Positions 1,305-40,648 are shown, counted from the stretch's first letter. The stretch is 64,000 nt of DNA from an uncultured Bacteroidales bacterium (GCA_964421595.1 CAYQXY010000008.1:2774-66773), one strand, 5' to 3'. Numbers and translations: made by a program. The notes: a model not told the origin generated them from the sequence alone.

Positions 1305-1865
1305 ATGGGGCATATTGATATTTGGGTGATTATTGTTTTTTCTACTCCAGTTTTTATCTGTAGTATGTCCTTTGCCATTGCCGGTTTAATTATAGGTTTT
1401 CATATAGCGCCCCGCTGGCGCAAAACAGGTGCATTAACAGCAGCGCAATTCATTACAGAAAGATTGGGCTATAAAACCCAAAAAGTTGATACGTATCTAT
1501 TCCTTTTTATATCCATTTTTACGACCGTATTTTTTCTTTACCCCGTTGCGAAAATTGTTGCGGTCCTTGGCCTGTTGATTTTGGTCTATACGGCTGTAGG
1601 GGGGCTATGGGCTGTTATTGTTAAAGATGTGTTGCAATTTGTGGTTTTAACTGCTGCAGTGTTTATTCTGGTTCCTCTTTCTTTCAACGCTATTGGTGGG
1701 ATAGATGAGTTTGTAACCGGGGCCCCTGAAGGTTTTTCCTCTTTGGTTTCTGGTGAGTACTCCTGGGAATTTGTAATTGCCTTCGGGTTTTACAATTTTC
1801 CTTTCCTATGTGTAAGTCCCATTTTTAATCCTAAAATCTCTAAAAATTATGAAAAAAAAACCTAA
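1305..1865 (+). pseudogene. Relic of a sodium:solute symporter (SSS family), internally deleted and truncated
   Basis: Only 186 aa. It contains SSS-like segments (APRWRKTGALTAAQFITERLGYK; LILVYTAVGGLWAVIVKDVLQFVVL). It lacks most of the roughly 500-aa, 13-14 TM architecture and runs into the susC start. Confidence 0.6.
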
Positions 1866-4800
1866 CCCTGAAATCTTTTTCTTTAAATGGAAAAGGAGAA
1901 AAATTCCACTAACTATGAAATTGCTGTTATGTTTTATTCTGTTTTCTGTGCTGAATGTTTCGGGCAGCACCGATGAAGTATTAAATAAATTTATTCAGGA
2001 AAACACCGTTACCGGGAGGGTGACTGAATCCGGCACAGGGCTTCCACTACCTGGAGTAACAATTATGATTAGAGGTACTTCAACAGGAACCGTTACTGAT
2101 ATTGAAGGACTTTATAAACTTTCTAATGTTACACCTGAAAACGTCTTGGTATTTTCTTATGTAGGTATGAGAACCCAGGAAGTTAATATTGGTTCACTGA
2201 CTGAAATAAATATTGAACTTGAAAATGAAGCACTATTACTTGATGAAATTGTTGCTATTGGCTATGGTACTGCCAGAAAGAGCGATATAACAGGTTCTGT
2301 TACATCCGTTTCAGGAAATCAAGTAACAGAAAGGAGAACAAATCAATTGTCTCAAGCTTTGCAAGGATCGATGGCGGGAGTTACTGTAACAAGAAATAAT
2401 AATGCTCCGGGTGCATCCTCAACTATTAGAATTCGTGGTATTACCACTATCGGTGATAGCAGCCCTTTAATTATTGTAGATGGTGTGCCGGTAGATAATA
2501 TCAATTGGGTAAACCCTTCTGATGTGGAAAGTATTTCGGTCTTAAAAGATGCAGCTTCAGCTTCCATATATGGGTCAAGAGCAGCTGCAGGCGTTATTCT
2601 TATTACTACCAAAAGGGCTAGAACAGGTCAGTTGAGTTTGGAGTTTACAACGGAATACGGGTTTGAAACACCGACTGCGATGCCTGAATATGTCGATGTC
2701 ACCAGATATATGCAAATGAAGAATGAATTGAGATGGAATGATAATGGAAATGATGCAAATGAGTTTCCCCGTTTTCCAAGTGACCTTGTGAATAACTATA
2801 TGTCACTCAATGCTGAAAATCCTGACAGATATCCCAACACTGATTGGGTTGACCTGGTCTTGAATGATAATGCGCCAAGACAGTCTCATAACCTTAGAGT
2901 ATCGGCCGGGACTGAAGCAATTCGTTCGACATTCTCACTTGCATATGATAAGACTGATGGTTTATATATGGACAGAACATATGAACGACTCTCTACCAGG
3001 TTTAATAATAATGTCGTAATTAATAATTTTATATCAGCTAACCTGGACTTACATTACAGGAGGTCAATTAGTCAGCAGCCAAGTGTAAATCCGATTTATA
3101 GTATGCTTGTAGCTGCCCCGATATATGCTGCAGAATGGTCTGATGGCCGCGTTGCCGGAGGGAAAGATGGTAACAATATCTATGGACAAATAAAATATGG
3201 TGGTTCACAAAGTAATTGGTGGAATCAGGTTGGGGGTAAACTTTCGATAGATTTGACTCCTATGGAGGGATTGCAATTTTCGGCTGTTGTTGCTCCTAAT
3301 ATTAATTTCGACAAGGCAAAGAATCACCAGTTGAAGGTCCCCTATACTCCATGGGATGATCCAACAAGAGTTCAGGGCACATTGCAGTGGGCAAATTCAA
3401 CTGACCTTTATGAAAACAGGAATGATAATCATCAGATTACTACCCAGTTTTTGGCAAATTATTCAAAAGACATCCAAGGACACACTATAAATCTACTGGG
3501 AGGGTATGAGAATTATTATGCTTTTTATGAAAGCCTTGGTGCTTCCAGGCAGCAATATGAACTAACTTCATTTCCTTATTTGAATCTGGGACCTCTGACC
3601 TATCGTGGGAACAGTGGAAGTGCTTATGAGAATGCCTACCGGTCATGGTTTGGCCGGGCAATGTACAATTATATGAACAGGTATTTCCTTCAGGCTAATC
3701 TGCGTTATGATGCATCTTCCCGGTTTCATGAGGATTACCGATGGGGAGCCTTCCCATCCTTGTCAGCTGGCTGGGTCTTGACAGAAGAGACTTTTATGCA
3801 GAATATTCCTGTCTTATCATATCTTAAAATGCGAGCTTCATGGGGCACTTTGGGAAATGAGAGAATTGGCAATTACCCCTATCAGGCCACTATCGGGTTT
3901 AGTAATGCATTGTTTCATCAGGGTTCAAATGTTGTTGCCGCACAATCAGCAGCTCAGTGGCAATACGCAATTCATAATATAACCTGGGAAACTACCGAGA
4001 CAATTGGGTTTGGACTGGATCTTGCTTTTTTTGAAAACAAATTGAGTTTAATTGCTGATTATTATCAGAAAACTACCAGCGACATGTTATTGGCTTTGGA
4101 GATTCCCAATTATATTGGTTATGATAACCCGGATCAGAATACTGGTAATATGTACACTAAAGGATGGGAATTAGAAGCTATTTATAACAATCGCGTTGGT
4201 GAATTCAATTATTCTGTTGGTTTTAATATTTCTGATTATAAAACCAGAATGGGAGATCTTGGAGGTACCGAATTTATCGGTGCTCAGATAGTCCGTGAAG
4301 GTAGTGAATTTCAGGAATGGTATGGATACCGCTCCGACGGATTGTTTCAATCTCAGGAGGATGTTTTGAATTCACCGGTGACAAGTGGTTCTGTCAAACC
4401 TGGTGATATAAAATACAGAGATATTAGTGGCCCTGATGAAAGCGCGGATGGTATTATATCAGGTGCTTATGACCGTGTCCTGCTCGGCGGTTCTCTGCCC
4501 CGCTACCTTTATGGTGCAAATCTCCGCCTTGGATACAAAGGATTTGATTTCGGATTAGTTATTCAGGGAGTAGGAAAACAAAATAACCGCCTCAGTGGAT
4601 TAATGGTTGAGCCTATTCCTGAAAACTGGGGGCATATTCCCAAGATACTTGATGGAACTTATTGGAGTGTTTACAATACAGATCAACAAAATCTTGCAGC
4701 CCAATATCCCAGACTTTCACGCGTAAGCATGGGTAACAATTATGCAATGTCTGATTTCTGGTTAATTAATGGCGCCTATTTAAGGTTAAAAAATATCTCT

Positions 4801-4983
4801 GTTGGGTATACTCTTCCGAGAAGCTGGGCCCAGAGAGTGTCAATGCAGAACTTGAGACTTTATGCCACAGCAACAGATGTATATACATTTAACCATTATC
4901 CCGATGGATGGGATCCGGAAGTATCTGCCACCGGTTATCCAATTACTACATCTATAATTTTCGGAGTATCTGTGAATTTCTAA
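1849..4983 (+). CDS. susC: SusC/RagA-family TonB-dependent outer-membrane transporter
   Basis: 1044-aa ORF. It has a CarboxypepD_reg-like segment (VTGRVTE..GLPLPGVTIMIRGTSTGTVTDIEGLYKL), a plug (DEIVAIGYGTARKSDITGSV; IRIRGITTIGDSSPLIIVDGVP) and a terminal aromatic residue (..SVNF). It is followed directly by susD. The signal-peptide-like start MKLLLCF at 1915 is a likely alternative start. Confidence 0.93.
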   Translation: MKKKPNPEIFFFKWKRRKIPLTMKLLLCFILFSVLNVSGSTDEVLNKFIQENTVTGRVTESGTGLPLPGVTIMIRGTSTGTVTDIEGLYKLSNVTPENVLVFSYVGMRTQEVNIGSLTEINIELENEALLLDEIVAIGYGTARKSDITGSVTSVSGNQVTERRTNQLSQALQGSMAGVTVTRNNNAPGASSTIRIRGITTIGDSSPLIIVDGVPVDNINWVNPSDVESISVLKDAASASIYGSRAAAGVILITTKRARTGQLSLEFTTEYGFETPTAMPEYVDVTRYMQMKNELRWNDNGNDANEFPRFPSDLVNNYMSLNAENPDRYPNTDWVDLVLNDNAPRQSHNLRVSAGTEAIRSTFSLAYDKTDGLYMDRTYERLSTRFNNNVVINNFISANLDLHYRRSISQQPSVNPIYSMLVAAPIYAAEWSDGRVAGGKDGNNIYGQIKYGGSQSNWWNQVGGKLSIDLTPMEGLQFSAVVAPNINFDKAKNHQLKVPYTPWDDPTRVQGTLQWANSTDLYENRNDNHQITTQFLANYSKDIQGHTINLLGGYENYYAFYESLGASRQQYELTSFPYLNLGPLTYRGNSGSAYENAYRSWFGRAMYNYMNRYFLQANLRYDASSRFHEDYRWGAFPSLSAGWVLTEETFMQNIPVLSYLKMRASWGTLGNERIGNYPYQATIGFSNALFHQGSNVVAAQSAAQWQYAIHNITWETTETIGFGLDLAFFENKLSLIADYYQKTTSDMLLALEIPNYIGYDNPDQNTGNMYTKGWELEAIYNNRVGEFNYSVGFNISDYKTRMGDLGGTEFIGAQIVREGSEFQEWYGYRSDGLFQSQEDVLNSPVTSGSVKPGDIKYRDISGPDESADGIISGAYDRVLLGGSLPRYLYGANLRLGYKGFDFGLVIQGVGKQNNRLSGLMVEPIPENWGHIPKILDGTYWSVYNTDQQNLAAQYPRLSRVSMGNNYAMSDFWLINGAYLRLKNISVGYTLPRSWAQRVSMQNLRLYATATDVYTFNHYPDGWDPEVSATGYPITTSIIFGVSVNF

Positions 4984-4994
4984 AATATTATATT

Positions 4995-6686
4995 ATGAAA
5001 AAGAAATCATTATTAATAACCTTTATAACTGTTATTTTTATTACAGCTTGTACAGATCTTGATCTTAATCCGCTCTCTGAAGGATCCAGTCAAAATTGGT
5101 ACTCGAATCAGACTGAAGTTGAAATGGCAGTAAACGACCTGTTCAGGTCAGTTTTCTGGAATGAGGTAAGTGATGAACATACAGATAACTACACCCGACG
5201 TGAGTCATTAACTCCTATTACCGCAGGAACCATAACATCCGATTGGGGGGCGGTAAATTCTTATTGGTCAAATACATATAAAGCAGTTGTCAGATCAAAT
5301 CTGGTCATAAACAACTTGTCGAGAGTAGAAAATGACCTGCCGCAATTAATAGTTGACAAATATGCGGGAAATGCCTATTTTTCAAGAGCATCTCAATATT
5401 CTACCCTTATCTCGCTATTTGGTGATGCAATATTTTTTACAGAAGATCTTGATCTGGATGAGGCCTTTACAATGTCAAGGACAGACAAGAATATTATTTT
5501 GCAAAATATTTATGATGATTATGATACAGCCATTGAAAAGCTACCCTTATCTTATGGCAGTTCAGAGAATAATTATGCTACAAAAGGGGCAGCGATGGCT
5601 ATGAAGGCTCGCATTGCATTGTATATGAGTGACTGGCAAGTTGCAAGAGATGCTTCCAAAGCATGTATTGACCTTGGAGAATACGAATTGTATCCCGACT
5701 TTGAGACATTGTTTTTATCAAGTACAAGAAACCCAAACGAAGTCTTGTTTTCTATACCCCGCTCACGAGAGCTTGGTACTGTGAGAGGTGTAAGAGACTT
5801 TACTTCAAGACTGCCAGGTGGGTGGGGTGGAGCGCAAGCTCCTTCCTGGGATTTGATGAGTGCATTTCTTTGTTCTGATGGACTTCCAATCGATGAGTCA
5901 CCTCTGTATAATCCACGCGAACCTTTTGAAAATCGTGATCCTCGCCTTACTGCTACGATTGTAGAGTTTGGTACAGAACATCTTGGTTATGTTTATCAGC
6001 CACATCCTGATTCTCTGCAAGTATTGAATGTTAGTACAGGAAATCTTGTTACTAATAACGATACCCGTTCAAACGCTGCTTTTGCCTCATTTAACGGACT
6101 CTTATGGAATAAGGGTGTAGATGAAGAATGGTTAGTTAATCATCAGGTGGATGATGATATAATTATTATGAGGTATGCTGATGTTTTGTTGATGTATGCA
6201 GAAGCCAAAATTGAGTTAGATGAAATAGATCAATCTGTGCTGGATGCAATTAACCAGGTTCGTGCACGTGCCTATGGTGTTGACTACATAAATACAGGAG
6301 TATATCCTGCAGTTACTACAACAAACCAGGCAGACCTCAGAAAGATTATCCGCATGGAGCGCCGTATGGAACTTGCTTTTGAGAATCGGCGTTATATGGA
6401 TATAATTCGCTGGAGGATTGCTGAACAGGTTTTAAATACTGATATTTATGGTATGTTAGATGTGTCTGATCTTCGGGAAAGGGTTATAGAACCTGGCCTG
6501 TGGTTCTTCCCTGATATTCCCACTATTGATGAAAACGGGATTCCGGATTTGTCACCAATGTACGAAACCGGACTTGTAAGAAGGCTTGCCCAAAGAAGAT
6601 TTGATGCCACAAGGCAGTATTTGTGGCCTCTGCCGACTTCGGATATTATGATAAACGAGAATCTGATTCAGAATCCTGGTTATTAA
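4995..6686 (+). CDS. susD: SusD/RagB-family glycan-binding lipoprotein
   Basis: Start is placed at MKKKSLLITFITVIFITAC (lipobox Cys), 12 nt after the susC stop. The C-terminal region carries the SusD hallmark (IRMERRMELAFENRRYMDIIRW). Confidence 0.9.
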   Translation: MKKKSLLITFITVIFITACTDLDLNPLSEGSSQNWYSNQTEVEMAVNDLFRSVFWNEVSDEHTDNYTRRESLTPITAGTITSDWGAVNSYWSNTYKAVVRSNLVINNLSRVENDLPQLIVDKYAGNAYFSRASQYSTLISLFGDAIFFTEDLDLDEAFTMSRTDKNIILQNIYDDYDTAIEKLPLSYGSSENNYATKGAAMAMKARIALYMSDWQVARDASKACIDLGEYELYPDFETLFLSSTRNPNEVLFSIPRSRELGTVRGVRDFTSRLPGGWGGAQAPSWDLMSAFLCSDGLPIDESPLYNPREPFENRDPRLTATIVEFGTEHLGYVYQPHPDSLQVLNVSTGNLVTNNDTRSNAAFASFNGLLWNKGVDEEWLVNHQVDDDIIIMRYADVLLMYAEAKIELDEIDQSVLDAINQVRARAYGVDYINTGVYPAVTTTNQADLRKIIRMERRMELAFENRRYMDIIRWRIAEQVLNTDIYGMLDVSDLRERVIEPGLWFFPDIPTIDENGIPDLSPMYETGLVRRLAQRRFDATRQYLWPLPTSDIMINENLIQNPGY

Positions 6687-6697
6687 GTTTATGTGAT

Positions 6698-6734
6698 ATT
6701 AACAAAGCCCGTATGAAATGCGGGCTTTGTTAAT
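6698..6734 (+). terminator. Stem-loop after susD, a likely intrinsic terminator
   Basis: Perfect 14-bp stem, attaacaaagcccg (6698-6711) with cgggctttgttaat (6721-6734), and a 9-nt loop. An AT-rich tail follows. Further imperfect pairing extends the structure to 6692/6743. Confidence 0.6.
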
Positions 6735-6842
6735 ATTATCACAAATAATTATTATGAGAAGCTGATTTATATTATCCTTTTTTTGCATTTTCACCTATTT
6801 AATCTGCATTCTCAGGAGTCAGACAGTCCTTTTTCAGTCAGT

Positions 6843-6992
6843 GGTGTTTTTCCTTCCCTGACTATGACTGCAAACCATTTTCCGCGGACTGAAGCAGGAA
6901 TTGGTGCTTAATTGCCCTGGTCTGACCATCTTTGGGTGATAACCTGGTGGGGTGTACTTATGATGCACTGGAAGAACCGGGCAACAGGCTAA
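6843..6992 (+). pseudogene. Decayed fragment of a paralogue of the 855-aa protein encoded at 11915..14482
   Basis: Translation is SGVFPSLTMTANHFPRTEAGIGA*LPWSDHLWVITWWG. The intact gene reads SGRYPHLTMFNNGNECGIGAVVPWADRLWTITYSPH. There is an in-frame TAA at 6909-6911 and no start codon. Confidence 0.55.
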
Positions 6993-7087: not shown

Positions 7088-8962
7088 ATGAAAAAGCAAA
7101 TTTGTTATTTTTTACCTGTCTTCATTTTATTTTTTCTGCAGGTAAACCTTCAGTCACAGAACTCTGTTCTTGTTGAAACTGAGAGTTTTACCAATAAGGG
7201 AGGCTGGGTAGTGGATCAGCAGTTCATGGACTTGATGGGTTCGCCCTATCTTTTGGCACATGGAATGGGCATTCCTGTGGAAGATGCAACAACAGAGGTA
7301 AAATTTCCCTCTACAGGGGACTATAGGGTTTATGTCCGCACTTTCAACTGGACGGCACCATGGTATTCAGGTGAAGGTCCCGGACAATTCCATTTGCTTG
7401 TTAATGGTGAACCTGTTGGTGAAATACTAGGTAATAAAGGTGATGAATGGATGTGGCAGGAGGTTGGAATGGTTAATATTAAAAATAGATCTTCCAGTAT
7501 TTCTCTTAGAGATTTGACAGGTTTTAATGGACGATGCGATGCCATATTTTTTACAAAAGAGAATATGTTGCCTCCAAGCGATCCTGACGCCCTTGAAGCA
7601 TTTCGCAGAAAGCATTCTGCACTTCCCAAAAAGCCTGATGAAGCAGGCAGTTTTGATTTTGTAGTTGTAGGTGGCGGAGTTGCTGGTACTGCAGCTGCGA
7701 TATCTGCTGCCCGGTTAGGATTAAAAGTTGCACTAATTCAGGACCGTCCTGTTTTGGGAGGAAATAACAGTTCTGAGGTAAGGGTCCATCTGGGGGGGCA
7801 TATCAATGTTGAACCATACCCTGCACTTGGAGAGGTAGTAAAAGAAATAGGCCCATCCCGCGGAGGAAACGCCCGGCCAGCAGATTATTATGAAGATGAG
7901 AAAAAAACAGATATGGTTCTGGCAGAGGAAAATATTTCACTTTTCCTTAATTACAGGGCATTTGCTGTAGAAATGGATGGCAATGAAATAGATCAGGTGC
8001 TGGCAAGAAATATTGAGACAGGAGAAGAGCTTGCATTTAAAGCTCCCGTGTTTGCAGATTGTACAGGAGATGGCACAATAGGATACCTTGCCGGGGCAGA
8101 TTATCAAATGGGAAGAGAAGGAAGGGCTGAATTTGGAGAACCCACAGCACCTGAGATAGCCGACAAGATGACAATGGGCTCTTCAGTACAATGGTATTCC
8201 ATTGAAGAAAAGGAAGAGAGCACTTTTCCCTTGTTTGTTTACGGGGTTGAATTCAATGAAGATAGTAGCGAAAAGGTCACTATGGGGGAATGGACATGGG
8301 AGACCGGAATGAATTTTAATCAGATATATGATTTTGAACGAATCAGGGACTATGGACTGCTTGTTGTTTACTCAAACTGGTCTTATCTGAAAAATTTGAG
8401 TTCCGTCAGAAATGATTACAGTAACCGTCGTCTTGATTGGGTTGCCTACATTGCAGGGAAAAGAGAATCAAGGAGGTTGCTTGGTGATCATATATTGACA
8501 GAGCTTGATCTGACAAACTTTGTTATTTATCCTGATGCTTCCGCTCCTACTACATGGACAATTGATCTGCATTATCCTGATCCGAAGAATACCGTTCACT
8601 TCCCCGGTATCGAGTTCAAGTCGATAGCCGTACATCAGCCTATTCATCCTTATCCGATTCCTTACCGCTGTTTTTACTCAAGAAATGTTGATAATCTCTT
8701 TATGGCAGGCAGGAATATCAGCGTAACCCATGTAGCACTGGGAACTGTTCGCGTCATGCGCACAACCGGCATGATGGGTGAGGTAGTCGGAATGGCTGCT
8801 TCTGTTGCTGTCAATAATAAAACCAAACCCCGTGGGGTTTATCAGGATCATCTGGATGAATTAAAGTCTTTAATGGGTTTAGGTGTTGGGAAGTATGATG
8901 TGGAAGATGCACAGAATTATAATCGTGGAAGAACTTTAGAGCCCAGGGAGATAGATCTTTAA
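7088..8962 (+). CDS. Exported FAD-dependent oxidoreductase with an N-terminal beta-sandwich (CBM-like) domain
   Basis: It has a signal peptide (MKKQICYFLPVFILFFLQVNLQSQ) and a dinucleotide-binding motif (FDFVVVGGGVAGTAAAISAARLGLKVALIQDRPVLGGNNSSE). The length and layout match the FAD_oxidored-type proteins common in PULs. Confidence 0.8.
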   Translation: MKKQICYFLPVFILFFLQVNLQSQNSVLVETESFTNKGGWVVDQQFMDLMGSPYLLAHGMGIPVEDATTEVKFPSTGDYRVYVRTFNWTAPWYSGEGPGQFHLLVNGEPVGEILGNKGDEWMWQEVGMVNIKNRSSSISLRDLTGFNGRCDAIFFTKENMLPPSDPDALEAFRRKHSALPKKPDEAGSFDFVVVGGGVAGTAAAISAARLGLKVALIQDRPVLGGNNSSEVRVHLGGHINVEPYPALGEVVKEIGPSRGGNARPADYYEDEKKTDMVLAEENISLFLNYRAFAVEMDGNEIDQVLARNIETGEELAFKAPVFADCTGDGTIGYLAGADYQMGREGRAEFGEPTAPEIADKMTMGSSVQWYSIEEKEESTFPLFVYGVEFNEDSSEKVTMGEWTWETGMNFNQIYDFERIRDYGLLVVYSNWSYLKNLSSVRNDYSNRRLDWVAYIAGKRESRRLLGDHILTELDLTNFVIYPDASAPTTWTIDLHYPDPKNTVHFPGIEFKSIAVHQPIHPYPIPYRCFYSRNVDNLFMAGRNISVTHVALGTVRVMRTTGMMGEVVGMAASVAVNNKTKPRGVYQDHLDELKSLMGLGVGKYDVEDAQNYNRGRTLEPREIDL

Positions 8963-8968
8963 TAAAAG

Positions 8969-8997
8969 ACTTCCCCGGGGATCTGCCACGGGGAAGT
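8969..8997 (+). terminator. Intrinsic-terminator-like hairpin after the FAD oxidoreductase
   Basis: acttccccg (8969-8977) pairs with cggggaagt (8989-8997). The loop is 11 nt and is followed by ttatt. Confidence 0.6.
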
Positions 8998-9059
8998 TTA
9001 TTATATTTATTTGTACGTGTGATATTATATTAACAGGTAACCTGATCAAAAGCCGGTAT

Positions 9060-10160
9060 ATGAAGTTGGGAATTATAAGTGTAGTTATTGGCAGCTTTAT
9101 CATGGTATTTATCCCATTTAATCTTTTTTCCGGGTCATTACAATCGGAAGGCGTTGATTACTGGTCAATGGAAGGAGTTTTAATTGAACACGAGTTTAAC
9201 GATTCGCTCGATCTGTTATCGGATCAGGTAATATTCGAATTACAGGATAAAAACGGACTTCCTGCATGGTTTGGGCGCTATATTTTCAAAGATGTATGTA
9301 TTCTGGGGCAGTGCCGGATGGTAAGCATATGGTTGTTTTGGGATGGTGCCGGAAACTATCTTGGTATTCAGCTTCTGGATGATGAACCTCTTACCAAATC
9401 TGATCATACAGAATTTGAGCCGGAAGATTATTCAAAGCTGGAATCAATTCTGAAAAACCCAAATTCAATTCTTAAGGATACAAAATCAGAAGATCTGACT
9501 TTGAAACCGGAATCGGATAATCCGTTTGAAGTGGACGGTTATTCAGGTGCCACTCAGCCTGCATTGGCTGATGTTGTTGTTAATGATGCCGTTTATTCCT
9601 GTCACACTTTGTGGCATACCGTTTACGGGCCAACTATGGATAAAATAATGGATATTCTGGAGGAACGGGTTGATGAAGATTACCTTAAGATGATGTTCGA
9701 AAGCGGTAAACCGGACTTTGTGATATGGGGAATAAGAAGTATTAAGCAATTCCCCCTATACCATGATTCATTTTATCATTTTATTGTGGAAGAAATAAAA
9801 TCAGACTATGATCGACTATATGAAGAGGCAATAGGTTATTTCGGGCCCGATAAAATGGAAGATCATACTGTTCAGATGGAGCTTGTGAGTTTAATTCCGG
9901 GATTGGCGACCCAGAAAAAATATGATATAATATGGAAGTTTATTGAAACGGACCTGGTATATGAAGAAGTTGTTGAAGCCTTACTGGAGTTTTTTCAAGA
10001 TAGTTATATCGGTGTTGGTGCGCTTAATCTAATTTATCGTGTTGTAAATAAAGAACATATAGAAAATAACCAGAATATAAACCGCATAATTCGGGATCTT
10101 GCAGAACATGAAAATGCTTATGTACGTAATCTAACCTTAAGACTCATAAACAGCAACTGA
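9060..10160 (+). CDS. Membrane-anchored hypothetical protein with an FMN-binding-like domain and a C-terminal helical-repeat region
   Basis: It has an N-terminal TM helix. The motif VDGYSGATQPAL (nt 9534-9554) fits the Dxx[ST]GA[ST] flavinylation motif of FMN_bind domains. The C-terminal half is helical and HEAT-like (ENAYVRNLTLRLI). Confidence 0.5.
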   Translation: MKLGIISVVIGSFIMVFIPFNLFSGSLQSEGVDYWSMEGVLIEHEFNDSLDLLSDQVIFELQDKNGLPAWFGRYIFKDVCILGQCRMVSIWLFWDGAGNYLGIQLLDDEPLTKSDHTEFEPEDYSKLESILKNPNSILKDTKSEDLTLKPESDNPFEVDGYSGATQPALADVVVNDAVYSCHTLWHTVYGPTMDKIMDILEERVDEDYLKMMFESGKPDFVIWGIRSIKQFPLYHDSFYHFIVEEIKSDYDRLYEEAIGYFGPDKMEDHTVQMELVSLIPGLATQKKYDIIWKFIETDLVYEEVVEALLEFFQDSYIGVGALNLIYRVVNKEHIENNQNINRIIRDLAEHENAYVRNLTLRLINSN

Positions 10161-10231
10161 ATATATGAAGTATTTTTTTACGATCTGTTTTTTGCCCTAC
10201 AATCAATAAAATCAACCAATTATAATAGTTA

Positions 10232-11668
10232 ATGATTACACTCATAATATGCACGATTGTTCTGATACTTGGTTATATTTTTTATTCCAGGTATGTTGTA
10301 AAGGTTTTCGGGGCTGATGCTAATCGCTCCACCCCGGCAAATACAATGACTGATGGTGTTGATTATTTGCCATTGCCATGGTGGAAGGTTTTTTTGATAC
10401 AGTTCCTCAACATTGCCGGCCTGGGGCCTATTTTCGGTGCAGTTGCTGGTGCTATGTGGGGTCCGGTTGCATATATCTGGATTGTGCTGGGCGCTGTTTT
10501 TGCTGGAGGGGTGCACGATTATTTCTCAGGGATGTTATCTGTCAAGCACAATGGGTTAAGCATAACCGAAATCGTCGGTATTTATATGGGCAGGCCTGTA
10601 ATGCAATTTATGCGGGGCTTCACGGTTTTACTTATGGTTATTGTCGGGGCAGTATTCATAATGGGACCCGCCAGGATACTGGCCGGTTTTACTCCCGACT
10701 TAAATTCCATGACCTTTTGGGTTTGGCTGATTTTTATTTACTATATAGTGGCTACAATGCTACCAATAAACAAAATCATTGGTCGCTTATATCCTGTTTT
10801 TGGATTTGCCCTTTTTTTTATGGCCATTGGATTGATCTCTGCGCTTTTGGTAAAGGGATACCATATGCCTGAATTAACCTTTGACTCTCTTCGTAACTTT
10901 CATTCAGAAGGAACCCGGTTCCCGATATTTCCCATGCTGTTTATCACCATTGCCTGCGGTGCAATATCAGGTTTCCATGCAACTCAATCCCCTTTAATGG
11001 CGCGTTGCCTGAACAATGAGAATCATGGCAGGAGAGTTTTCTACGGCGCCATGATTACAGAAGGAATCGTTGCACTTATCTGGGCCACTATCAGTATGAG
11101 TATTTTTGGTGGAGTAAATGAACTCAACGACATAATGTATGAACATCAGGGTAATGCTGCATGGGTGGTGAATGAAATATCAAATTCATTACTTGGCAGA
11201 TTCGGGGCTGTCCTTGCATTATTAGGGGTTGTTGCAGCACCAATAACTTCTGGAGACACTGCATTTCGAAGTGCTCGTTTGATAGTTGCTGATTTTTTGA
11301 AATTAAAACAAAAACCAATTTTCAACCGCCTGATAATTAGTATCCCATTATTTGGAATTGGTTATTTACTTACCCTGATAGACTTCAGTGTGGTCTGGAG
11401 GTATTTTGCATGGTCAAATCAGACACTTGCAACAGTAGTCTTGTGGACAATTACAGTATATCTGGTTAAAAACAAGAAGAATTTCTGGATAACATTACTG
11501 CCGGCTGTTTTCATGACTTCAGTTGTTTCTGTGTATATTCTTCTGGCTCCTGAGGGATTAAATTTATCAAAAGAACTATCCTACCCTATAGGTTTTTTAG
11601 TTACTCTGATATCGATAATCAGCTTTATGCTATTTTTTAATAAGGAAAGACAATTGGGCAGTAAATAA
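10232..11668 (+). CDS. cstA: Carbon starvation protein CstA-family transporter (short form)
   Basis: 478-aa polytopic protein. Its N-terminus is typical of CstA (ILGYIFYSRYV..VFG; PANTMTDGVDYLPLPWWKVFLIQFLNIAGLGPIFGAVAGAMWGP). Confidence 0.85.
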   Translation: MITLIICTIVLILGYIFYSRYVVKVFGADANRSTPANTMTDGVDYLPLPWWKVFLIQFLNIAGLGPIFGAVAGAMWGPVAYIWIVLGAVFAGGVHDYFSGMLSVKHNGLSITEIVGIYMGRPVMQFMRGFTVLLMVIVGAVFIMGPARILAGFTPDLNSMTFWVWLIFIYYIVATMLPINKIIGRLYPVFGFALFFMAIGLISALLVKGYHMPELTFDSLRNFHSEGTRFPIFPMLFITIACGAISGFHATQSPLMARCLNNENHGRRVFYGAMITEGIVALIWATISMSIFGGVNELNDIMYEHQGNAAWVVNEISNSLLGRFGAVLALLGVVAAPITSGDTAFRSARLIVADFLKLKQKPIFNRLIISIPLFGIGYLLTLIDFSVVWRYFAWSNQTLATVVLWTITVYLVKNKKNFWITLLPAVFMTSVVSVYILLAPEGLNLSKELSYPIGFLVTLISIISFMLFFNKERQLGSK

Positions 11669-11914: not shown

Positions 11915-14482
11915 ATGGGAACAAATATGAACAAGAAAACTCAGAACATCTCAAGACGAAATTTTTGCAAAAACACCTCATTATTAGTAGGTGGGGGAAT
12001 GCTTTTAAACACACTACCTTTATTTGGAAATGATAGTTTCATGGTTAGTGAGTTAATTAGGGCAAGGATTAGCGGACGATACCCTCATCTGACTATGTTC
12101 AATAATGGGAATGAATGTGGCATTGGTGCTGTTGTGCCGTGGGCGGATCGTTTATGGACTATTACTTATAGCCCGCATGATCCCAGGGGGAATAATCATG
12201 ACGGTCTTTATGAGATAACTCCTGATCTTGAGATTATCAAAAGAGAAGAATCGGTTGGTGGAACGCCTGCCGGCCGGATGATTCACCGGGAGTCGGAGCA
12301 GTTGTTTATTGGCCCTTATGCTATTGATAAGAACCGGAATGTACGTGTCATACCCTACGAAAGAATGCCGGGTCGGCATACTGCAATTGCGCGTCATCTG
12401 ACACAACCTGATACAAAAATCTACTACTTCACCATGGAGGAAGGGATGTATGAAGTGGATGTGAATTCGTTGGAAGTTACAACATTATATCTGGACTCGA
12501 ATGTAACTCCCGGAGGTAATGACGGAGGTCCGAGATTGCCAGGTTACCATGGCAAGGGTGCCTATTCAAGTCAGGGGTTGGTTGTAATTTCAAATAATGG
12601 CAGGATTGGAACAGGAGGAGTTGGCGGAGACGGATTAATAGATTTCAGACTACCCGGCGGGTGTCTGGCCTCATGGAATGGTGATTGGGGAGGAAAATTA
12701 TCGCCGAAAGGCTGGCAGGTAATCAACGACAATCAATTCACCGAAGTCACAGGCCCCGGAGGAATTCACGGTAATGAGACAACAGATGCACCGCTGTGGA
12801 GTATGGGCTGGGACCACAGGTCATTGATATTAAAGTTATTGGACAAAGGTGAGTGGAGTACATTCCGTTTGCCGAAAGCTGATTACAGCTATGAAGGATT
12901 GCATGGCTGGCATGTGGAATGGCCCCGTATTCGTCAGGTTGGCCCTAAAGGAGAGTATCTGATGAATCATCACGGGATGTGGTTTGATTTTCCGGGAAGG
13001 TTTTCCAAAGATTATCATCCGGCTCCGCGCCCCATAGCAAGTCATTTGAAAATAACCGGTGATTTTGCCAGGTGGCAGGATCAGGTAGTCTTTGGTTGTG
13101 ATGATAATGCCCGTAGCAGATTCGGTCTTGGAACACCATTAACAGATCAGTCTCATTCAAACCTTTGGTTTTCAAAGTGGGACAAGCTGAAGGATAATGG
13201 TCGTCCATATGGATGGGGAGGTCCCTGGGTACATGACAAGGTTCAAAAAGGTGTGGCATCTGAACCATTAGCATTTCCGGGTTATACTCACAGGCAGTTG
13301 CATTTAAGCAATATCAATAACCATTCAATTACCTTTAAAGTTGAAATAGACACCAGTGGCAGAGGATATTGGGAGGAGCTGGTAAATTTGACCGTACCGG
13401 CACATGGATATATCCATCATGAGTTTTCGGATGATATCAATGCTGAATGGATTCGCCTGACACCGGATGCAAGCGGGAATTATGTTACTGCTTATTTCCA
13501 TTTCGGGAAAGGCGGGGGAGTGCAGAATGATCCGTCTATGTTCGAAGCCCTGGCACCTGCCAGTCCCAATACACCACGAAGTGTAGGCGTGCTTTATACT
13601 GCCGGACAAGATAAAGGAATCCTGCAGTTTGCGGCCTGGACCGTCGATAATAATGGCAGGGCATCGGAGGCCGGGTATTATGAGATGGATCAGGATTTAA
13701 AGCTAATAAAGGCTGAGAATCCGGAATTGCACAGGGAGATAAAACAAAAAGCAGAAATTGATACTTCAGAATTTCGCGTTGATGAGGCGTCAGTAATTGT
13801 ATTGGATCATTGGGGAAACCGGTTTCGCCTGCCAAAGGGTGACCTGTCCTTTGATAATCCTACAGAATTTGGTATTCCCAGGCTAAGAAGGGAACTGGCC
13901 ACAGAGCGTGACATTTTTAATGTTCACGGCACATTATACTGTCTCCCGCGTTCGAATTCAGGGGATATTGCAAACATAAAACCCATTGCAACGCATAATA
14001 AAAGGTTTACAGATTTTTGTCCCTGGCGGGGTCTGGTGGTTATAGCCGGTTGCAGAAGTGATTTGCAGCAGGATAGTGAGCATTTTCGCGTTAGTGATGA
14101 TGGTAAAACAGGGTTGTGGCTTGGAGATTACGATGATCTCTGGAAACTCGGAAAACCAGTTGGAACAGGTGGCCCCTTAAAAAATACAGATGTTCATGCT
14201 AATATACCATCTGATCCATATCTAATGACAGGTTATGATAAGAAGAAAGTGCATATATCTCATAATTCCACCAGCCCTGTTGAATTCTCCATTGAAATAT
14301 GCGTAATAATGAACTTGATTGCTGTGAGTGATGAATTTGGTGTTTGGAATGGTTATAAAAAAATCAGCGTAAATCCAGGAGAGGAAACAGAATTTATTTT
14401 TCCGGAAGGATTTAGTGCTCATTGGGTAAGGCTGGTGGCTGACAAAGATTGTACTGCCACGGCTATATTTACTTATTCCTGA
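11915..14482 (+). CDS. Exported (TAT-signal) 855-aa protein of unknown family, a candidate novel carbohydrate-active enzyme
   Basis: It has a twin-arginine motif (NISRRNFCKNTSLLVGGGMLL). I recognise no known catalytic signature. It is embedded between PUL genes and has a decayed paralogue at 6843-6992. Confidence 0.6.
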   Translation: MGTNMNKKTQNISRRNFCKNTSLLVGGGMLLNTLPLFGNDSFMVSELIRARISGRYPHLTMFNNGNECGIGAVVPWADRLWTITYSPHDPRGNNHDGLYEITPDLEIIKREESVGGTPAGRMIHRESEQLFIGPYAIDKNRNVRVIPYERMPGRHTAIARHLTQPDTKIYYFTMEEGMYEVDVNSLEVTTLYLDSNVTPGGNDGGPRLPGYHGKGAYSSQGLVVISNNGRIGTGGVGGDGLIDFRLPGGCLASWNGDWGGKLSPKGWQVINDNQFTEVTGPGGIHGNETTDAPLWSMGWDHRSLILKLLDKGEWSTFRLPKADYSYEGLHGWHVEWPRIRQVGPKGEYLMNHHGMWFDFPGRFSKDYHPAPRPIASHLKITGDFARWQDQVVFGCDDNARSRFGLGTPLTDQSHSNLWFSKWDKLKDNGRPYGWGGPWVHDKVQKGVASEPLAFPGYTHRQLHLSNINNHSITFKVEIDTSGRGYWEELVNLTVPAHGYIHHEFSDDINAEWIRLTPDASGNYVTAYFHFGKGGGVQNDPSMFEALAPASPNTPRSVGVLYTAGQDKGILQFAAWTVDNNGRASEAGYYEMDQDLKLIKAENPELHREIKQKAEIDTSEFRVDEASVIVLDHWGNRFRLPKGDLSFDNPTEFGIPRLRRELATERDIFNVHGTLYCLPRSNSGDIANIKPIATHNKRFTDFCPWRGLVVIAGCRSDLQQDSEHFRVSDDGKTGLWLGDYDDLWKLGKPVGTGGPLKNTDVHANIPSDPYLMTGYDKKKVHISHNSTSPVEFSIEICVIMNLIAVSDEFGVWNGYKKISVNPGEETEFIFPEGFSAHWVRLVADKDCTATAIFTYS

Positions 14483-40611: not shown

Positions 40612-40648
40612 ATTGATTCTTGATATTAAATGAACAATTCCACAACTT

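What the first reader, a model, noticed from the sequence alone, without database searches (positions are those of the whole stretch)
11915..14482. 855-aa TAT-exported protein of unknown family at the core of the PUL
It has a clear twin-arginine signal (SRRNF), which implies export in a folded and possibly cofactor-loaded state. I recognise no catalytic motif. The sequence is rich in Gly, Trp and aromatics, compatible with a beta-propeller or beta-sandwich architecture. It lies between cstA and GH95, and a second, decayed copy follows susD. It is the best candidate in this window for a new enzyme family such as a glycosidase, lyase or cofactor-dependent enzyme.
Basis: partly seen in the sequence, partly recalled or inferred. 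Interest (0 to 1): 0.7.

Follow-up and report, generated by a model that had tools for sequence, protein, structure and literature searches.

The report
Uncharacterised sulfatase-linked propeller protein family
The 855-residue exported protein is real and belongs to a very large, unnamed family of two-lobed beta-propeller proteins that sit at the core of bacterial sugar-harvesting gene clusters, next to or fused with sulfate-removing enzymes, so it is a strong candidate for a new enzyme family that breaks down sulfated sugars, though no activity has been shown.

Summary
ORF 11915-14482 encodes 855 aa with a Tat motif (SRRNFCK), lies between cstA and GH95, and a short decayed second copy follows susD (6717-6947). 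There is no match in Pfam, NCBIfam or PDB sequences. AlphaFold (pLDDT 88) gives a 7-bladed beta-propeller plus discoidin-like sandwich, followed by a degenerate duplicate of that unit. Foldseek finds only generic propellers (TM<=0.52). The family is not GH150 (hhalign probability 0.5%).

The family is large: >6,500 clusters at 90% identity, >=597 species, and 45-50% identity across Bacteroidota, Planctomycetota, Verrucomicrobiota, Acidobacteriota and Armatimonadota. In Bacteroidota it follows SusC/SusD, sometimes as the only enzyme-like gene. S1 sulfatases are directly adjacent far more often than chance (9 vs 1.9 expected) and are fused to it in five proteins. It is also coupled to a PF12831 flavoprotein, a probable ApbE-flavinylated relay protein (window U366) and GFO/IDH/MocA oxidoreductases.

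Tat export is lineage-specific and most members use Sec or lipoprotein signals, so a cofactor does not follow from it.

Best reading: a new family of carbohydrate-active enzymes acting on sulfated glycans together with a sulfatase. The chemistry (hydrolase, lyase or redox-assisted) is unresolved.

The parts
11915..14482 (+). Target gene, 855 aa, member of a large unannotated family
   Evidence: ORF; >6,598 homolog clusters, top 120 full-length at 46-93% identity, all 'hypothetical'; 2,090 clusters at 50% identity
11951..11971 (+). Twin-arginine motif S-R-R-N-F-C-K (residues 13-19) within the signal peptide (about residues 1-40)
   Evidence: conserved only in the closest clade and a few other lineages
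12077..13189 (+). N-terminal 7-bladed beta-propeller (about residues 55-425), the most conserved part, with many invariant Arg/His/Glu/Asp/Trp
   Evidence: AF2 whole protein pLDDT 88; domain alone pLDDT 90, pTM 0.92; invariant columns; Foldseek gives only generic 7-bladed propellers, TMq <=0.52
13196..13507 (+). Beta-sandwich 1 (about residues 428-531), discoidin/F5-8-type-C-like
   Evidence: DSSP; homologous to sandwich 2 (blastp E 8e-12); PF00754 weak hits in 6/41 members
13547..14149 (+). Second, reduced propeller-like lobe (about residues 545-745; about 4 four-stranded sheets), a degenerate duplicate of blades 5-7
   Evidence: DSSP; in P0162/P0175/P0196 this region matches profile positions 58-330, i.e. 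a fuller second propeller; FRLPKADYSY (317-326) vs FRLPKGDLSF (637-646), read directly from the sequence
14150..14479 (+). Beta-sandwich 2 (about residues 746-855)
6717..6947 (+). Pseudogene relic of a second family member (Sec-type signal plus the first ~37 mature residues, in-frame stop at 6909-6911, then truncated), at the canonical SusD->family gene->FADox position
   Evidence: tblastn E 2e-5 and family HMM hit; translation; best match to the paralog subtype L047_9328, 63%; canonical gene order in other genomes
1849..6686 (+). SusC (1849-4983) and SusD (probable start 4995, end 6686) pair of the PUL
   Evidence: Pfam; SusC/SusD precede the family gene in 19-21 of 82 loci
7088..8962 (+). 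Conserved cassette partner: exported PF12831 FAD-dependent oxidoreductase with an N-terminal CBM-like domain and a Sec signal
   Evidence: Pfam E 1e-72; present in 15/82 loci and directly adjacent 5 times vs 0.84 expected
9060..10160 (+). Conserved cassette partner U366: membrane-anchored protein with no Pfam family, carrying an ApbE-type flavinylation motif DGYSGAT (nt 9534-9554)
   Evidence: motif D[GA]x[ST]GAT conserved in 9 of 11 homologs; ApbE gene follows it in Halalkalibaculum
10232..11668 (+). CstA-family inner-membrane transporter, part of the U366-CstA-target block
   Evidence: Pfam; the same block occurs in the 93%-identical relative L090 and in L062/L076
45588..46934 (-). Tat-lipoprotein GFO/IDH/MocA oxidoreductase, a recurrent neighbour of the family elsewhere
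   Evidence: Pfam; RRKFL motif; adjacent to family members 5 times vs 0.71 expected

Best explanation
The gene encodes an exported all-beta protein. It has a 7-bladed beta-propeller plus a discoidin-like sandwich, followed by a shrunken duplicate of that unit. It belongs to a very large, so far unnamed family, and I judge it most likely to be a new family of carbohydrate-active enzymes. Proposed working: after SusC/SusD capture a sulfated, deoxyhexose-bearing glycan, this enzyme binds an anionic (sulfated or carboxylated) sugar. Binding would occur in a basic/acidic pocket on the conserved face of the N-terminal propeller, probably at the cleft with the second lobe. There it cleaves or transforms a linkage in obligatory cooperation with an S1 sulfatase, which removes the sulfate just before or just after. 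The small product then goes to periplasmic oxidoreductases (the PF12831 flavoprotein wired to the flavinylated relay U366, and GFO-type enzymes) and is imported by CstA or SSF transporters. Shown: the ORF, the signal, the predicted fold, the internal duplication, the family size and taxonomic spread, the conserved synteny, the sulfatase adjacency and fusions. Inferred: that it is catalytic, that its substrate is a sulfated glycan, where the active site lies, and the order of steps. Whether it is a hydrolase or a lyase is not resolved.
For: (1) Strong purifying constraint typical of enzymes: 45-50% identity over ~800 aa between phyla, and >100 invariant columns including many Arg/His/Lys/Glu/Asp/Trp. 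(2) PUL core position: SusC-SusD-family gene in 19-21 of 82 loci, and as the only enzyme-like gene in minimal PULs (Spirosoma; Rhodocytophaga L040). (3) Sulfatase coupling across five phyla: directly adjacent in 9 loci vs 1.9 expected (P<0.0005); N-terminal S1 sulfatase fused to the family domain in P0122, P0129, P0140, P0152 and P0160, with intact CxPxR formylglycine motifs. Two sulfatase subfamilies recur, one being S1_8, whose characterised members are galactose-2-sulfate sulfohydrolases. (4) Companion CAZymes for 6-deoxyhexoses: GH95 in the window and 4 loci, GH78 in 3 loci plus Chondrinema. (5) Confident AF2 model with discoidin-like sandwiches. Propeller-plus-CBM-like sandwich architectures occur among known glycosidases, and GH43 and GH181 are among the whole-model Foldseek hits. 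(6) Lipoprotein or Sec signals in Bacteroidota and Tat here place it in the periplasm or at the cell surface.
Against: No catalytic motif or residue arrangement could be tied to any known mechanism. Foldseek finds only generic, mostly non-enzymatic propellers. Many family members, especially in Planctomycetota and Verrucomicrobiota, have no sulfatase or CAZyme within 10 kb. The gene directly after susD is also the classical position of non-catalytic surface glycan-binding proteins. Links to oxidoreductases (FADox, GFO, DUF1080) are as significant as some CAZyme links and may point to different chemistry. Other fusion partners (M14-like peptidase, WD40) do not fit a simple glycosidase picture.
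Confidence: 0.5

Rival explanations
1. It is a step in a periplasmic redox-assisted (non-Koshland) pathway. A flavin (PF12831) or NAD (GFO/IDH/MocA) dehydrogenase oxidises the sugar to a keto-sugar. The propeller protein then performs the beta-elimination or hydration that breaks the glycosidic bond (or expels sulfate), or else it generates the substrate for those oxidoreductases.
For: Direct adjacency to GFO (5 vs 0.71 expected, P~0.0005), FADox (5 vs 0.84, P~0.0015) and DUF1080 3-keto-disaccharide hydrolase (2 vs 0.25, P~0.02). Conserved operon order target-FADox-U367 in many Bacteroidota. U366/U367 carries a conserved ApbE flavinylation motif, and ApbE is encoded in the Halalkalibaculum cassette, so a real extracytosolic electron-transfer module is present. 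GFO plus DUF1080 form a known periplasmic 3-keto-glycoside pathway (PMC8121099; bioRxiv 10.1101/2024.03.25.586180). The target and GFO are the only Tat substrates in the window.
Against: GFO, DUF1080 and PF12831 genes are very numerous in these phyla (general knowledge) and the absolute counts are small. Most family loci have no oxidoreductase nearby. Sulfatase coupling is stronger and includes fusions, whereas no fusion to an oxidoreductase was seen. The known eliminases and hydratases of such pathways have other folds (recalled from the literature, not checked here).
Confidence: 0.17
2. It is a non-catalytic glycan-binding or scaffold protein: a surface glycan-binding protein of the Sus-like machinery and, in fusions, a substrate-targeting module for sulfatases.
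For: The gene sits directly after susD, the usual place of SusE/F-like binding proteins. Many Bacteroidota copies have lipoprotein signals. The best whole-model Foldseek hit is the heparin-binding sensor domain of BT4663, and all others are scaffold propellers. Two discoidin/CBM32-like sandwiches are present. No catalytic motif was found.
Against: Surface glycan-binding proteins are generally poorly conserved (general knowledge), whereas this family keeps 45-50% identity and >100 invariant residues across phyla. It is abundant in phyla without SusC/D (Planctomycetota, Verrucomicrobiota, Acidobacteriota). An 800-aa binding module conserved to this degree would be unusual. Tat export and periplasmic (non-lipoprotein) forms exist.
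Confidence: 0.15
3. It is a cofactor- or metal-dependent enzyme that must fold and load its cofactor before export, as the first reader inferred from the Tat signal. An example would be a copper or other metal-centre oxidoreductase on a propeller scaffold.
For: A clear Tat motif here and in Balneolales, Acidobacteriota and some others, selectively, since other exported proteins in the window use Sec. Five invariant His in different blades and three Cys conserved in 40/41 members. His is enriched. From general knowledge, propeller metalloenzymes such as NosZ occur in both Tat and Sec versions, so Sec export elsewhere does not exclude a periplasmically assembled metal site.
Against: Most of the family uses Sec or lipoprotein export (31/32 Bacteroidota, 0/12 Planctomycetota with RR). 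There is no known cofactor-binding motif. There is no structural similarity to galactose oxidase, NosZ, PQQ or cd1-type propellers among the top Foldseek hits. No cofactor-maturation genes are linked specifically to the target.
Confidence: 0.08
4. It acts on something other than glycans, for example a peptidase-like or other hydrolase acting on glycoprotein backbones or unrelated polymers imported by SusC/D-like systems.
For: Fusions to M14-like metallopeptidase domains in P0169 and P0150. The best domain-level Foldseek hit is the propeller of acylaminoacyl peptidase. The CstA neighbour belongs to a family annotated as a pyruvate/peptide transporter.
Against: There is no peptidase catalytic domain or motif in the protein itself. 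The dominant partners are sulfatases, GH95, GH78, GH31 and SusC/D. Peptidase propellers are gating domains, not catalytic ones.
Confidence: 0.05

Closest known systems
GH150 lambda-carrageenase (CglA; Pfam PF25290-PF25292)
   Same: A large (~900 aa) multi-domain, propeller-rich exported protein from sulfated-galactan loci that works with S1_8 sulfatases. It has no crystal structure, and its active site is proposed to lie in a cleft between two lobes (PMC12549532). Some sulfatases adjacent to my family are S1_8.
   Different: No sequence relationship: hhalign of the family profile against CglA, GH150B and a 22-sequence GH150 profile gives probabilities of 0.4-0.8%. None of 41 members hits the GH150 Pfam models even at E<=1. 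GH150 has far fewer relatives in the protein collection (193 hits, vs >6,500) and these are mostly from marine taxa. My family also occurs in soil and freshwater taxa.
Generic 7-bladed beta-propellers (E. coli YncE, Bub3/WD40, propeller of acylaminoacyl peptidase)
   Same: Same topology: seven four-stranded blades. These are the best Foldseek matches for the isolated N-terminal domain (TMq 0.44-0.52).
   Different: Only fold-level similarity (8-15% identity, RMSD 6-10 A). None carries the discoidin sandwich, the second reduced lobe or the family's invariant residues, and none is a PUL enzyme.
Propeller-based CAZymes with appended beta-sandwich modules (e.g. GH43+CBM35 exo-beta-1,3-galactanase 7byv; GH181 sialidase 9eob; by general knowledge also PL24/PL25 ulvan lyases, GH145, PL42)
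   Same: An exported propeller catalytic domain plus CBM-like sandwich in glycan-degrading loci. GH43 and GH181 structures appear among the whole-model Foldseek hits.
   Different: Weak matches (TM to target ~0.3). None appears in the top 50 for the propeller alone. There is no Pfam or sequence similarity. Blade number and domain order differ.
Periplasmic sensor domain of the hybrid two-component system BT4663 (4a2m)
   Same: The best whole-model Foldseek hit. It has two consecutive propeller lobes and binds a sulfated glycan (heparin/heparan sulfate) in a Bacteroides PUL.
   Different: TM only 0.23-0.26 with RMSD ~31 A. BT4663 is a non-catalytic sensor attached to kinase and regulator domains, which are absent here. 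There is no sequence similarity.
Extracytosolic flavinylated electron-transfer modules (ApbE substrates: NqrC/RnfG-type FMN-binding proteins, flavinylated reductases)
   Same: This applies to the cassette partners, not the target. U366 has the [S/T]GA[S/T] motif in the D-x-x-[ST]-G-A-T form, is membrane-anchored and sits beside an exported FAD enzyme, and ApbE lies in the Halalkalibaculum cassette (motif definition from PMC11334425).
   Different: U366 matches no Pfam FMN-binding family. Text searches of two survey papers on flavinylated systems found no mention of polysaccharides or of this kind of flavoprotein. Flavinylation here is predicted, not shown.

Membership tests
GH150 (lambda-carrageenase) | Sequence similarity to CglA / match to the GH150 Pfam models PF25290, PF25291, PF25292 | tested here: not met
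   hhalign of family profile A1 vs CglA (probability 0.4%), vs GH150B (0.8%), vs GH150 profile A3 (0.5%); no PF2529x hit in any of 41 members at E<=1
GH150 (lambda-carrageenase) | Endo-hydrolysis of beta-1,4 linkages in lambda-carrageenan | not testable with these tools
   Needs an enzyme assay
Any Pfam-A / NCBIfam family | Score above the curated threshold for any model | tested here: not met
   0 families at E<=0.01. At E<=1 across 41 members only weak F5_F8_type_C (6/41) and PLipase_C_C (6/41) sandwich hits
Any protein with a solved structure (sequence level) | phmmer or hmmsearch match to a PDB chain | tested here: not met
   Single sequence: best E 0.34, a spurious 47-residue match. Family profile: 0 matches at E<=10
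Known propeller CAZyme folds (GH43, GH181, GH33, GH74, GH145, PL22/24/25/42) and propeller metalloenzymes (galactose oxidase AA5, NosZ) | Specific structural similarity (TM well above the generic-propeller level) to a solved member | tested here: not met
   Whole model: GH43 7byv and GH181 9eob with TMt ~0.31 only. Propeller alone: the top 50 are all YncE, WD40 or peptidase propellers and strictosidine synthase, TMq <=0.52. Only the top 50 of 711 matches were visible, so lower-ranked matches cannot be excluded
Tat-exported cofactor-containing enzymes | Twin-arginine signal conserved across the family | tested here: not met
   A Tat motif is present here and in the nearest clade, but absent in 31/32 Bacteroidota and 12/12 Planctomycetota copies
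Tat-exported cofactor-containing enzymes | Recognisable cofactor-binding motif (CxxCH, flavinylation site, dinucleotide fold, zincin HExxH) | tested here: not met
   None found in the sequence; no Rossmann or cofactor Pfam hit
Polysaccharide utilisation locus (Sus-like) component | Encoded next to a SusC/SusD pair, with conserved synteny in other genomes | tested here: met
   Window SusC 1849-4983 and SusD to 6686. SusC-SusD-family gene in 19-21 of 82 loci, in PGAP-annotated Chondrinema and Spirosoma records and in Fodinibius and Halalkalibaculum
Carbohydrate-active enzyme (new family) | Demonstrated bond-cleaving activity on a carbohydrate by at least one member | not testable with these tools
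   No characterised member was found in Pfam, NCBIfam, the PDB or the searched literature
New CAZy families of the 2026 PUL-screen preprint (GH_New1, GH_New2, PL_New1, PL_New2) | Fold of the founding members | tested here: not met
   They are described as a TIM barrel, GH36/27-like, a beta-helix and a beta-jelly roll respectively. The target is a beta-propeller. Compared by fold description only, not by sequence

The most novel reading that the evidence does not exclude
The family is the missing bond-breaking component of a periplasmic, respiration-linked oxidative pathway for sulfated glycans built into PULs. An exported PF12831 flavoenzyme, electrically wired to the membrane through the ApbE-flavinylated relay U366 (or, in PVC bacteria, a Tat-exported GFO dehydrogenase), oxidises or reduces the sugar. 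The two-lobed propeller enzyme then catalyses the elimination or hydration that releases the aglycone or the sulfate. This would be a non-Koshland route to desulfation and depolymerisation that works alongside classical S1 sulfatases.
Probability: 0.12. Interest if true: 0.85.

Novelty: new variant of a known kind. Interest (0 to 1): 0.62.

Why it matters
Sulfated algal, microbial and host glycans are a large and recalcitrant carbon pool, and many PULs that target them still contain conserved proteins of unknown function. This family is among the larger ones still unnamed: more than 6,500 clusters at 90% identity, at least 597 species, and six or more phyla spanning marine, soda-lake, soil and freshwater habitats. 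It is tied to sulfatases by gene fusion, one of the strongest genomic signs of a shared pathway. If it is catalytic it would found a new CAZy family, fill a gap in predicted degradation cascades for sulfated fucose- and rhamnose-containing glycans, and improve the annotation of thousands of Planctomycetota, Verrucomicrobiota and Bacteroidota genomes. The attached flavoprotein and flavinylated-relay module would, if confirmed, show that extracytosolic flavin-based electron transfer is built into polysaccharide utilisation loci.

Tried and rejected
1. Direct family assignment gave nothing: Pfam, NCBIfam, PDB phmmer and PDB profile search.
2. ORF 9060-10160 is not the 'second copy'; it has no similarity to the target. 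The real relic lies in the intergenic region 6717-6947.
3. GH150 hypothesis rejected. I fetched cglA and GH150B from the P. carrageenovora plasmid NZ_CP027525.1 (an accession guess failed), built a GH150 profile and found no relationship.
4. Whole-model and domain-only Foldseek against the PDB returned only generic propellers. The viral structure library was not searched because it was judged irrelevant.
5. Tat as evidence for a cofactor was rejected at family level, although Tat is selective within this window.
6. Literature searches for PF12831, PUL flavoproteins, new propeller GH families, the Planctomycetota fucoidan paper and a 2026 PUL-screening preprint found no description of this family.
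7. The sigma-70 promoter and terminator scan around the gene was uninformative, and Bacteroidota-type promoters are not covered by it.
8. No ApbE gene was found in the window or in the other loci, apart from Halalkalibaculum L088.
9. My first neighbour clustering merged some sulfatases into the target cluster through the fusion proteins. I corrected this with HMM-based assignment before doing the statistics.
Full report
**Observation.** The ORF at 11915-14482 (+) is real: 855 aa with an ATG start. Its N-terminus reads MGTNMNKKTQNISRRNFCKNTSLLVGGGMLL and contains S-R-R-N-F-C-K, a near-consensus twin-arginine motif. In this window only this protein and a GFO/IDH/MocA oxidoreductase (45588-46934, RRKFL followed by a lipobox) have such a motif. 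GH95, the three GH31s, GH16, all sulfatases and the flavoprotein have Sec or lipoprotein signals. The gene lies between a CstA transporter (10232-11668) and GH95 (14875-17184), downstream of SusC/SusD (1849-6686). The surrounding locus is large and also holds three GH31, a 7-bladed lactonase, GH16, eight S1 sulfatases, an exported RraA-like protein and a nucleoside-hydrolase-like protein. Gly, Trp and His are enriched relative to the other window proteins; Tyr and Phe are not.

**The decayed second copy.** The two ORFs after susD are a PF12831 flavoprotein and an unrelated 366-aa protein. But tblastn and the family HMM against the six-frame window found a relic in the susD-FADox spacer. It has a Sec-like signal followed by VSGVFPSLTMTANHFPRTEAGIGA*LPWSDHLWVITW (6837-6947). 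This is 51% identical to target residues 52-85 (E 2e-5), has an in-frame stop, and is truncated after about 65 codons. It best matches (63%, ungapped) a paralog subtype that sits directly after SusD in Membranihabitans. That is the canonical position of the family gene in other genomes.

**What the protein is.** There is no hit in Pfam-A or NCBIfam and none in PDB sequences, either with the single sequence or with a 41-sequence family profile. AlphaFold2 with that alignment gives a confident all-beta model (pLDDT 88.2, pTM 0.88). The strand pattern reads as follows:
- seven four-stranded blades (about residues 55-425);
- a beta-sandwich (about 428-531);
- about four further blade-like sheets (545-745);
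- a second beta-sandwich (746-855).

The two sandwiches are homologous (25% identity, E 8e-12 pairwise). The motif FRLPKADYSY (317-326) recurs as FRLPKGDLSF (637-646). In some relatives (P0162, P0175, P0196) the middle region matches the profile of the N-terminal propeller. The protein is therefore an ancient tandem duplication of [propeller + sandwich] whose second propeller has shrunk. Weak but recurrent F5/8-type-C hits (6 of 41 members, best 8e-6) mark the sandwiches as discoidin/galactose-binding-like. The N-terminal propeller folds confidently on its own (pLDDT 90, pTM 0.92).

Foldseek against the PDB gives only generic propellers. For the whole model the best hits are double-propeller scaffolds and the BT4663 heparin sensor (TM <=0.26). 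For the propeller alone they are YncE, Bub3, other WD40 proteins and the acylaminoacyl-peptidase propeller (TMq <=0.52, 8-15% identity). No CAZyme or metalloenzyme propeller stands out.

**Family size and spread.** The word-indexed search found more than 6,598 clusters at 90% identity. The best 120 are full-length, 46-93% identical, all unnamed or 'hypothetical', and without Pfam domains. The exhaustive profile search found 2,090 clusters at 50% identity. A scan of one genome per species found at least 597 species. These include Balneolales, Cytophagales (Dyadobacter, Runella, Larkinella, Spirosoma, Cyclobacterium, Algoriphagus), Marinilabiliales, Planctomycetota, Verrucomicrobiota, Kiritimatiellota, Acidobacteriota, Armatimonadota and Chloroflexota. 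The closest relatives (93%, 77%) come from soda-lake sediment metagenomes and Balneolaceae MAGs. Conservation is striking: about 50% identity between phyla and more than 100 invariant columns, rich in Arg, His, Lys, Glu, Asp and Trp. Three Cys are conserved in 40 of 41 sequences.

**Tat.** The twin-arginine motif is conserved in the Balneolales/Salinibacter-like clade, in Acidobacteriota (3-4 of 4) and sporadically elsewhere. By contrast, 31 of 32 Bacteroidota copies have lipoprotein or Sec signals and none of 12 Planctomycetota copies has an RR motif. The family as such does not need Tat, so a cytoplasmically loaded cofactor cannot be inferred. No haem, flavinylation, dinucleotide or zincin motif is present. 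A periplasmically assembled metal site cannot be excluded.

**Genomic context.** I called ORFs in 82 loci, clustered the neighbours and identified the clusters with Pfam. The recurrent neighbours are listed below.

| Neighbour | Loci (of 82) |
|---|---|
| SusD | 21 |
| SusC | 19 |
| S1 sulfatase | 18 |
| PF12831 FAD-dependent oxidoreductase | 14-15 |
| GFO/IDH/MocA oxidoreductase | 11-14 |
| ECF sigma | 12 |
| FecR | 11 |
| Unnamed ~367-aa family (homolog of window ORF 9060-10160) | 8 |
| DUF1080 3-keto-disaccharide hydrolase | 5-6 |
| SSF transporter | 4 |
| CstA transporter | 4 |
| GH95 | 4 |
| GH78 | 3 |

The typical Bacteroidota order is (ECF-FecR-)SusC-SusD-(sulfatase-)TARGET(-TARGET)-FADox-U367-(CstA/SSF)-(GFO). 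In Spirosoma oryzicola the PUL is just SusC-SusD-TARGET. In Chondrinema, Fodinibius and Halalkalibaculum it is SusC-SusD-sulfatase-TARGET.

Conditional on being present in the flank, direct adjacency (gap <=300 nt) is enriched over a uniform-placement null.

| Neighbour | Observed adjacent | Expected | P |
|---|---|---|---|
| Sulfatase | 9 | 1.9 | <0.0005 |
| GFO | 5 | 0.71 | ~0.0005 |
| FADox | 5 | 0.84 | ~0.0015 |
| DUF1080 | 2 | 0.25 | ~0.02 |

**Fusions.** Among about 30 long family members, five (P0122, P0129, P0140, P0152, P0160) have an N-terminal S1 sulfatase fused to the family domain, all with an intact C-x-P-x-R motif. The coupled sulfatases fall into two recurrent groups. One is nearest to GlcNAc-6-sulfatase and ulvan rhamnose-sulfatase structures. 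The other is S1_8, whose characterised members are galactose-2-sulfate 2-O-sulfohydrolases of the lambda-carrageenan cascade (PMC12549532). Other partners are M14-like peptidase domains (2), WD40, TSP3, and weak CBM4_9 and GH5-like regions.

**Testing the obvious known candidate.** GH150 lambda-carrageenase is a ~940-aa propeller-rich enzyme without a solved structure, so Foldseek against the PDB could not see it, and it works with S1_8 sulfatases. I located cglA and GH150B on the P. carrageenovora plasmid, built a 22-sequence GH150 profile and compared it with the family. hhalign probabilities were 0.4-0.8%. No family member hits the GH150 Pfam models even at E<=1. The family is not GH150. 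The four new CAZy families of a 2026 PUL-screening preprint have other folds: a TIM barrel, GH36/27-like, a beta-helix and a jelly roll.

**The cassette partners.** The flavoprotein (7088-8962) has a Sec signal, an N-terminal CBM-like domain and an intact GxGxxG motif. U366 (9060-10160) has an N-terminal membrane anchor and the sequence DGYSGAT. The motif D-[GA]-x-[ST]-G-A-T is conserved in 9 of 11 homologs. It matches the [S/T]GA[S/T] site that the flavin transferase ApbE modifies (PMC11334425). In Halalkalibaculum an ApbE gene directly follows U366. FADox, U366 and ApbE therefore look like an extracytosolic flavin-based electron-transfer module embedded in a PUL. Text searches of two survey papers on flavinylated systems found no mention of polysaccharides or of this kind of flavoprotein.

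**How it most likely works.** I commit to the following, at about 0.5 confidence. The protein is the catalytic, glycan-processing core of a PUL module for sulfated, deoxyhexose-containing glycans. It binds an anionic sugar on the conserved face of the N-terminal propeller. Many invariant acidic and basic residues fall in the loops that link the propeller strands: E67, H88, R154, E175, H212/K214, N227/N228, D300, E335/R338/R340 and H353. I take these loops to form one face of the propeller, but this is read from strand positions and was not checked on coordinates. The site probably lies against the second lobe. The protein cleaves or transforms a linkage in concert with an S1 sulfatase. Products then go to periplasmic oxidoreductases and to CstA or SSF importers. 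The very high cross-phylum conservation suggests a small, invariant substrate epitope (exo-type or oligosaccharide-level action) rather than a variable polymer surface.

Shown: the gene, the signal, the predicted fold, the duplication, the family, the synteny, the adjacency and the fusions. Inferred: catalysis, substrate class and active-site location. Unresolved: hydrolase versus lyase versus redox-assisted eliminase.

Rivals and their confidences:
- a role inside a redox-assisted non-Koshland pathway (0.17);
- a non-catalytic binding or scaffold protein (0.15);
- a cofactor- or metal-dependent enzyme (0.08);
- a non-glycan function (0.05).

**Comparison with the known, and novelty.** It works like a PUL-encoded propeller CAZyme, but it fails every membership test I could run for known families. 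I rate it a new variant of a known kind: a new family within the known class of PUL glycan-processing proteins. Interest is 0.62. Unknown PUL proteins are common. However, the size of this family, its cross-phylum conservation, its fusion to sulfatases and its link to a predicted flavinylated redox module make it an unusually well-motivated target.

**Locus history.** The window's FADox and CstA are 73-76% identical to those of Mariniphaga cassettes, whereas the target is only 43-45% identical to the Mariniphaga copies. The target is 72-77% identical to Balneolales copies, whose flavoproteins are only 36-41% identical to the window's. Together with the relic after susD and a truncated SSF gene at 1305-1865, this suggests that the cassette's own Sec-type copy decayed. 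The Tat-type copy now downstream of cstA would then supply the function.

Noticed in passing
window 9060-10160 (motif at 9534-9554); L088 18513-20741: The unnamed 366-aa membrane-anchored protein next to the PF12831 flavoprotein carries a conserved ApbE-type flavinylation motif (DGYSGAT; D[GA]x[ST]GAT in 9 of 11 homologs). In Halalkalibaculum an ApbE flavin-transferase gene follows it. This suggests an extracytosolic flavin electron-transfer module built into PULs, with no Pfam family for the relay protein.
   Followed up: partly
window 7088-8962: The PF12831 FAD-dependent oxidoreductase has an intact GxGxxG motif but a Sec-type (not Tat) signal peptide and an N-terminal ~160-aa CBM-like domain (weak Golvesin_C hit). 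How it would acquire FAD outside the cytoplasm is unexplained. There is no solved relative beyond the dinucleotide-binding motif.
   Followed up: partly
window 1305-1865: This is a truncated sodium:solute symporter gene. It covers only residues ~1-27 and ~79-255 of the ~556-aa SSF found in related cassettes (78% identical to the L090 copy). It is probably a pseudogene relic just upstream of SusC and a second sign of rearrangement in this PUL.
   Followed up: partly
window 7088-11668 vs L076, L062, L035: The cassette is a mosaic. FADox and CstA are 73-76% identical to those of Mariniphaga (Marinilabiliales), but the target is only 43-45% identical to the Mariniphaga copies. Balneolales relatives show the reverse pattern (target 72-77%, FADox 36-41%). 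This suggests lateral transfer of the FADox-U366-CstA block or replacement by a paralog.
   Followed up: partly
window 36747-37622 (-) and 37761-38813 (-): An RraA/aldolase-like protein and an inosine-uridine nucleoside-hydrolase-like protein both carry N-terminal signal peptides and lie among the sulfatases. Exported versions of these normally cytoplasmic families are unusual and may be unrecognised glycan-active enzymes.
   Followed up: no
window 39043-41524 (-): The GH16 gene (40649-41524) overlaps the start of the downstream sulfatase ORF (39043-40686) by 38 nt as called. The sulfatase's long N-terminal extension suggests that its true start is further downstream.
   Followed up: no
window 47243-49027 (-): This 594-aa ORF (GTG start) next to the GFO oxidoreductase has no Pfam family and is another unannotated protein in the locus.
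   Followed up: no
L090 11380-13659; L059 19428-21731; L004 3825-4511: A second recurrent sub-cassette lies near family members: SSF transporter, a longer (~760 aa) PF12831 flavoprotein, and a ~760-aa protein with an N-terminal F5/8-type-C domain and no other recognised domain.
   Followed up: no
P0162, P0175, P0196 (family members of 1,094-1,178 aa): In these relatives the middle region matches the N-terminal propeller profile (positions ~58-330), i.e. a complete second propeller. They may represent the ancestral undegraded duplicate architecture.
   Followed up: partly
L008 169-3522, L039 2078-4759, L058 21-2906: A ~960-aa PQQ_2/BamB-like propeller protein recurs near family members in three loci. 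PGAP gives GH150 CglA a similar 'PQQ-binding-like beta-propeller' name, so these might be GH150-like enzymes. This was not tested.
   Followed up: no
L089 1645-3564 (-): In the contig of a 79%-identical relative (P0007), an ulvan-lyase-like gene pair (PF25840/PF25841), a sulfatase and a PhoD-like protein lie next to the family gene. This is a possible hint towards sulfated rhamnose/uronate glycans.
   Followed up: no
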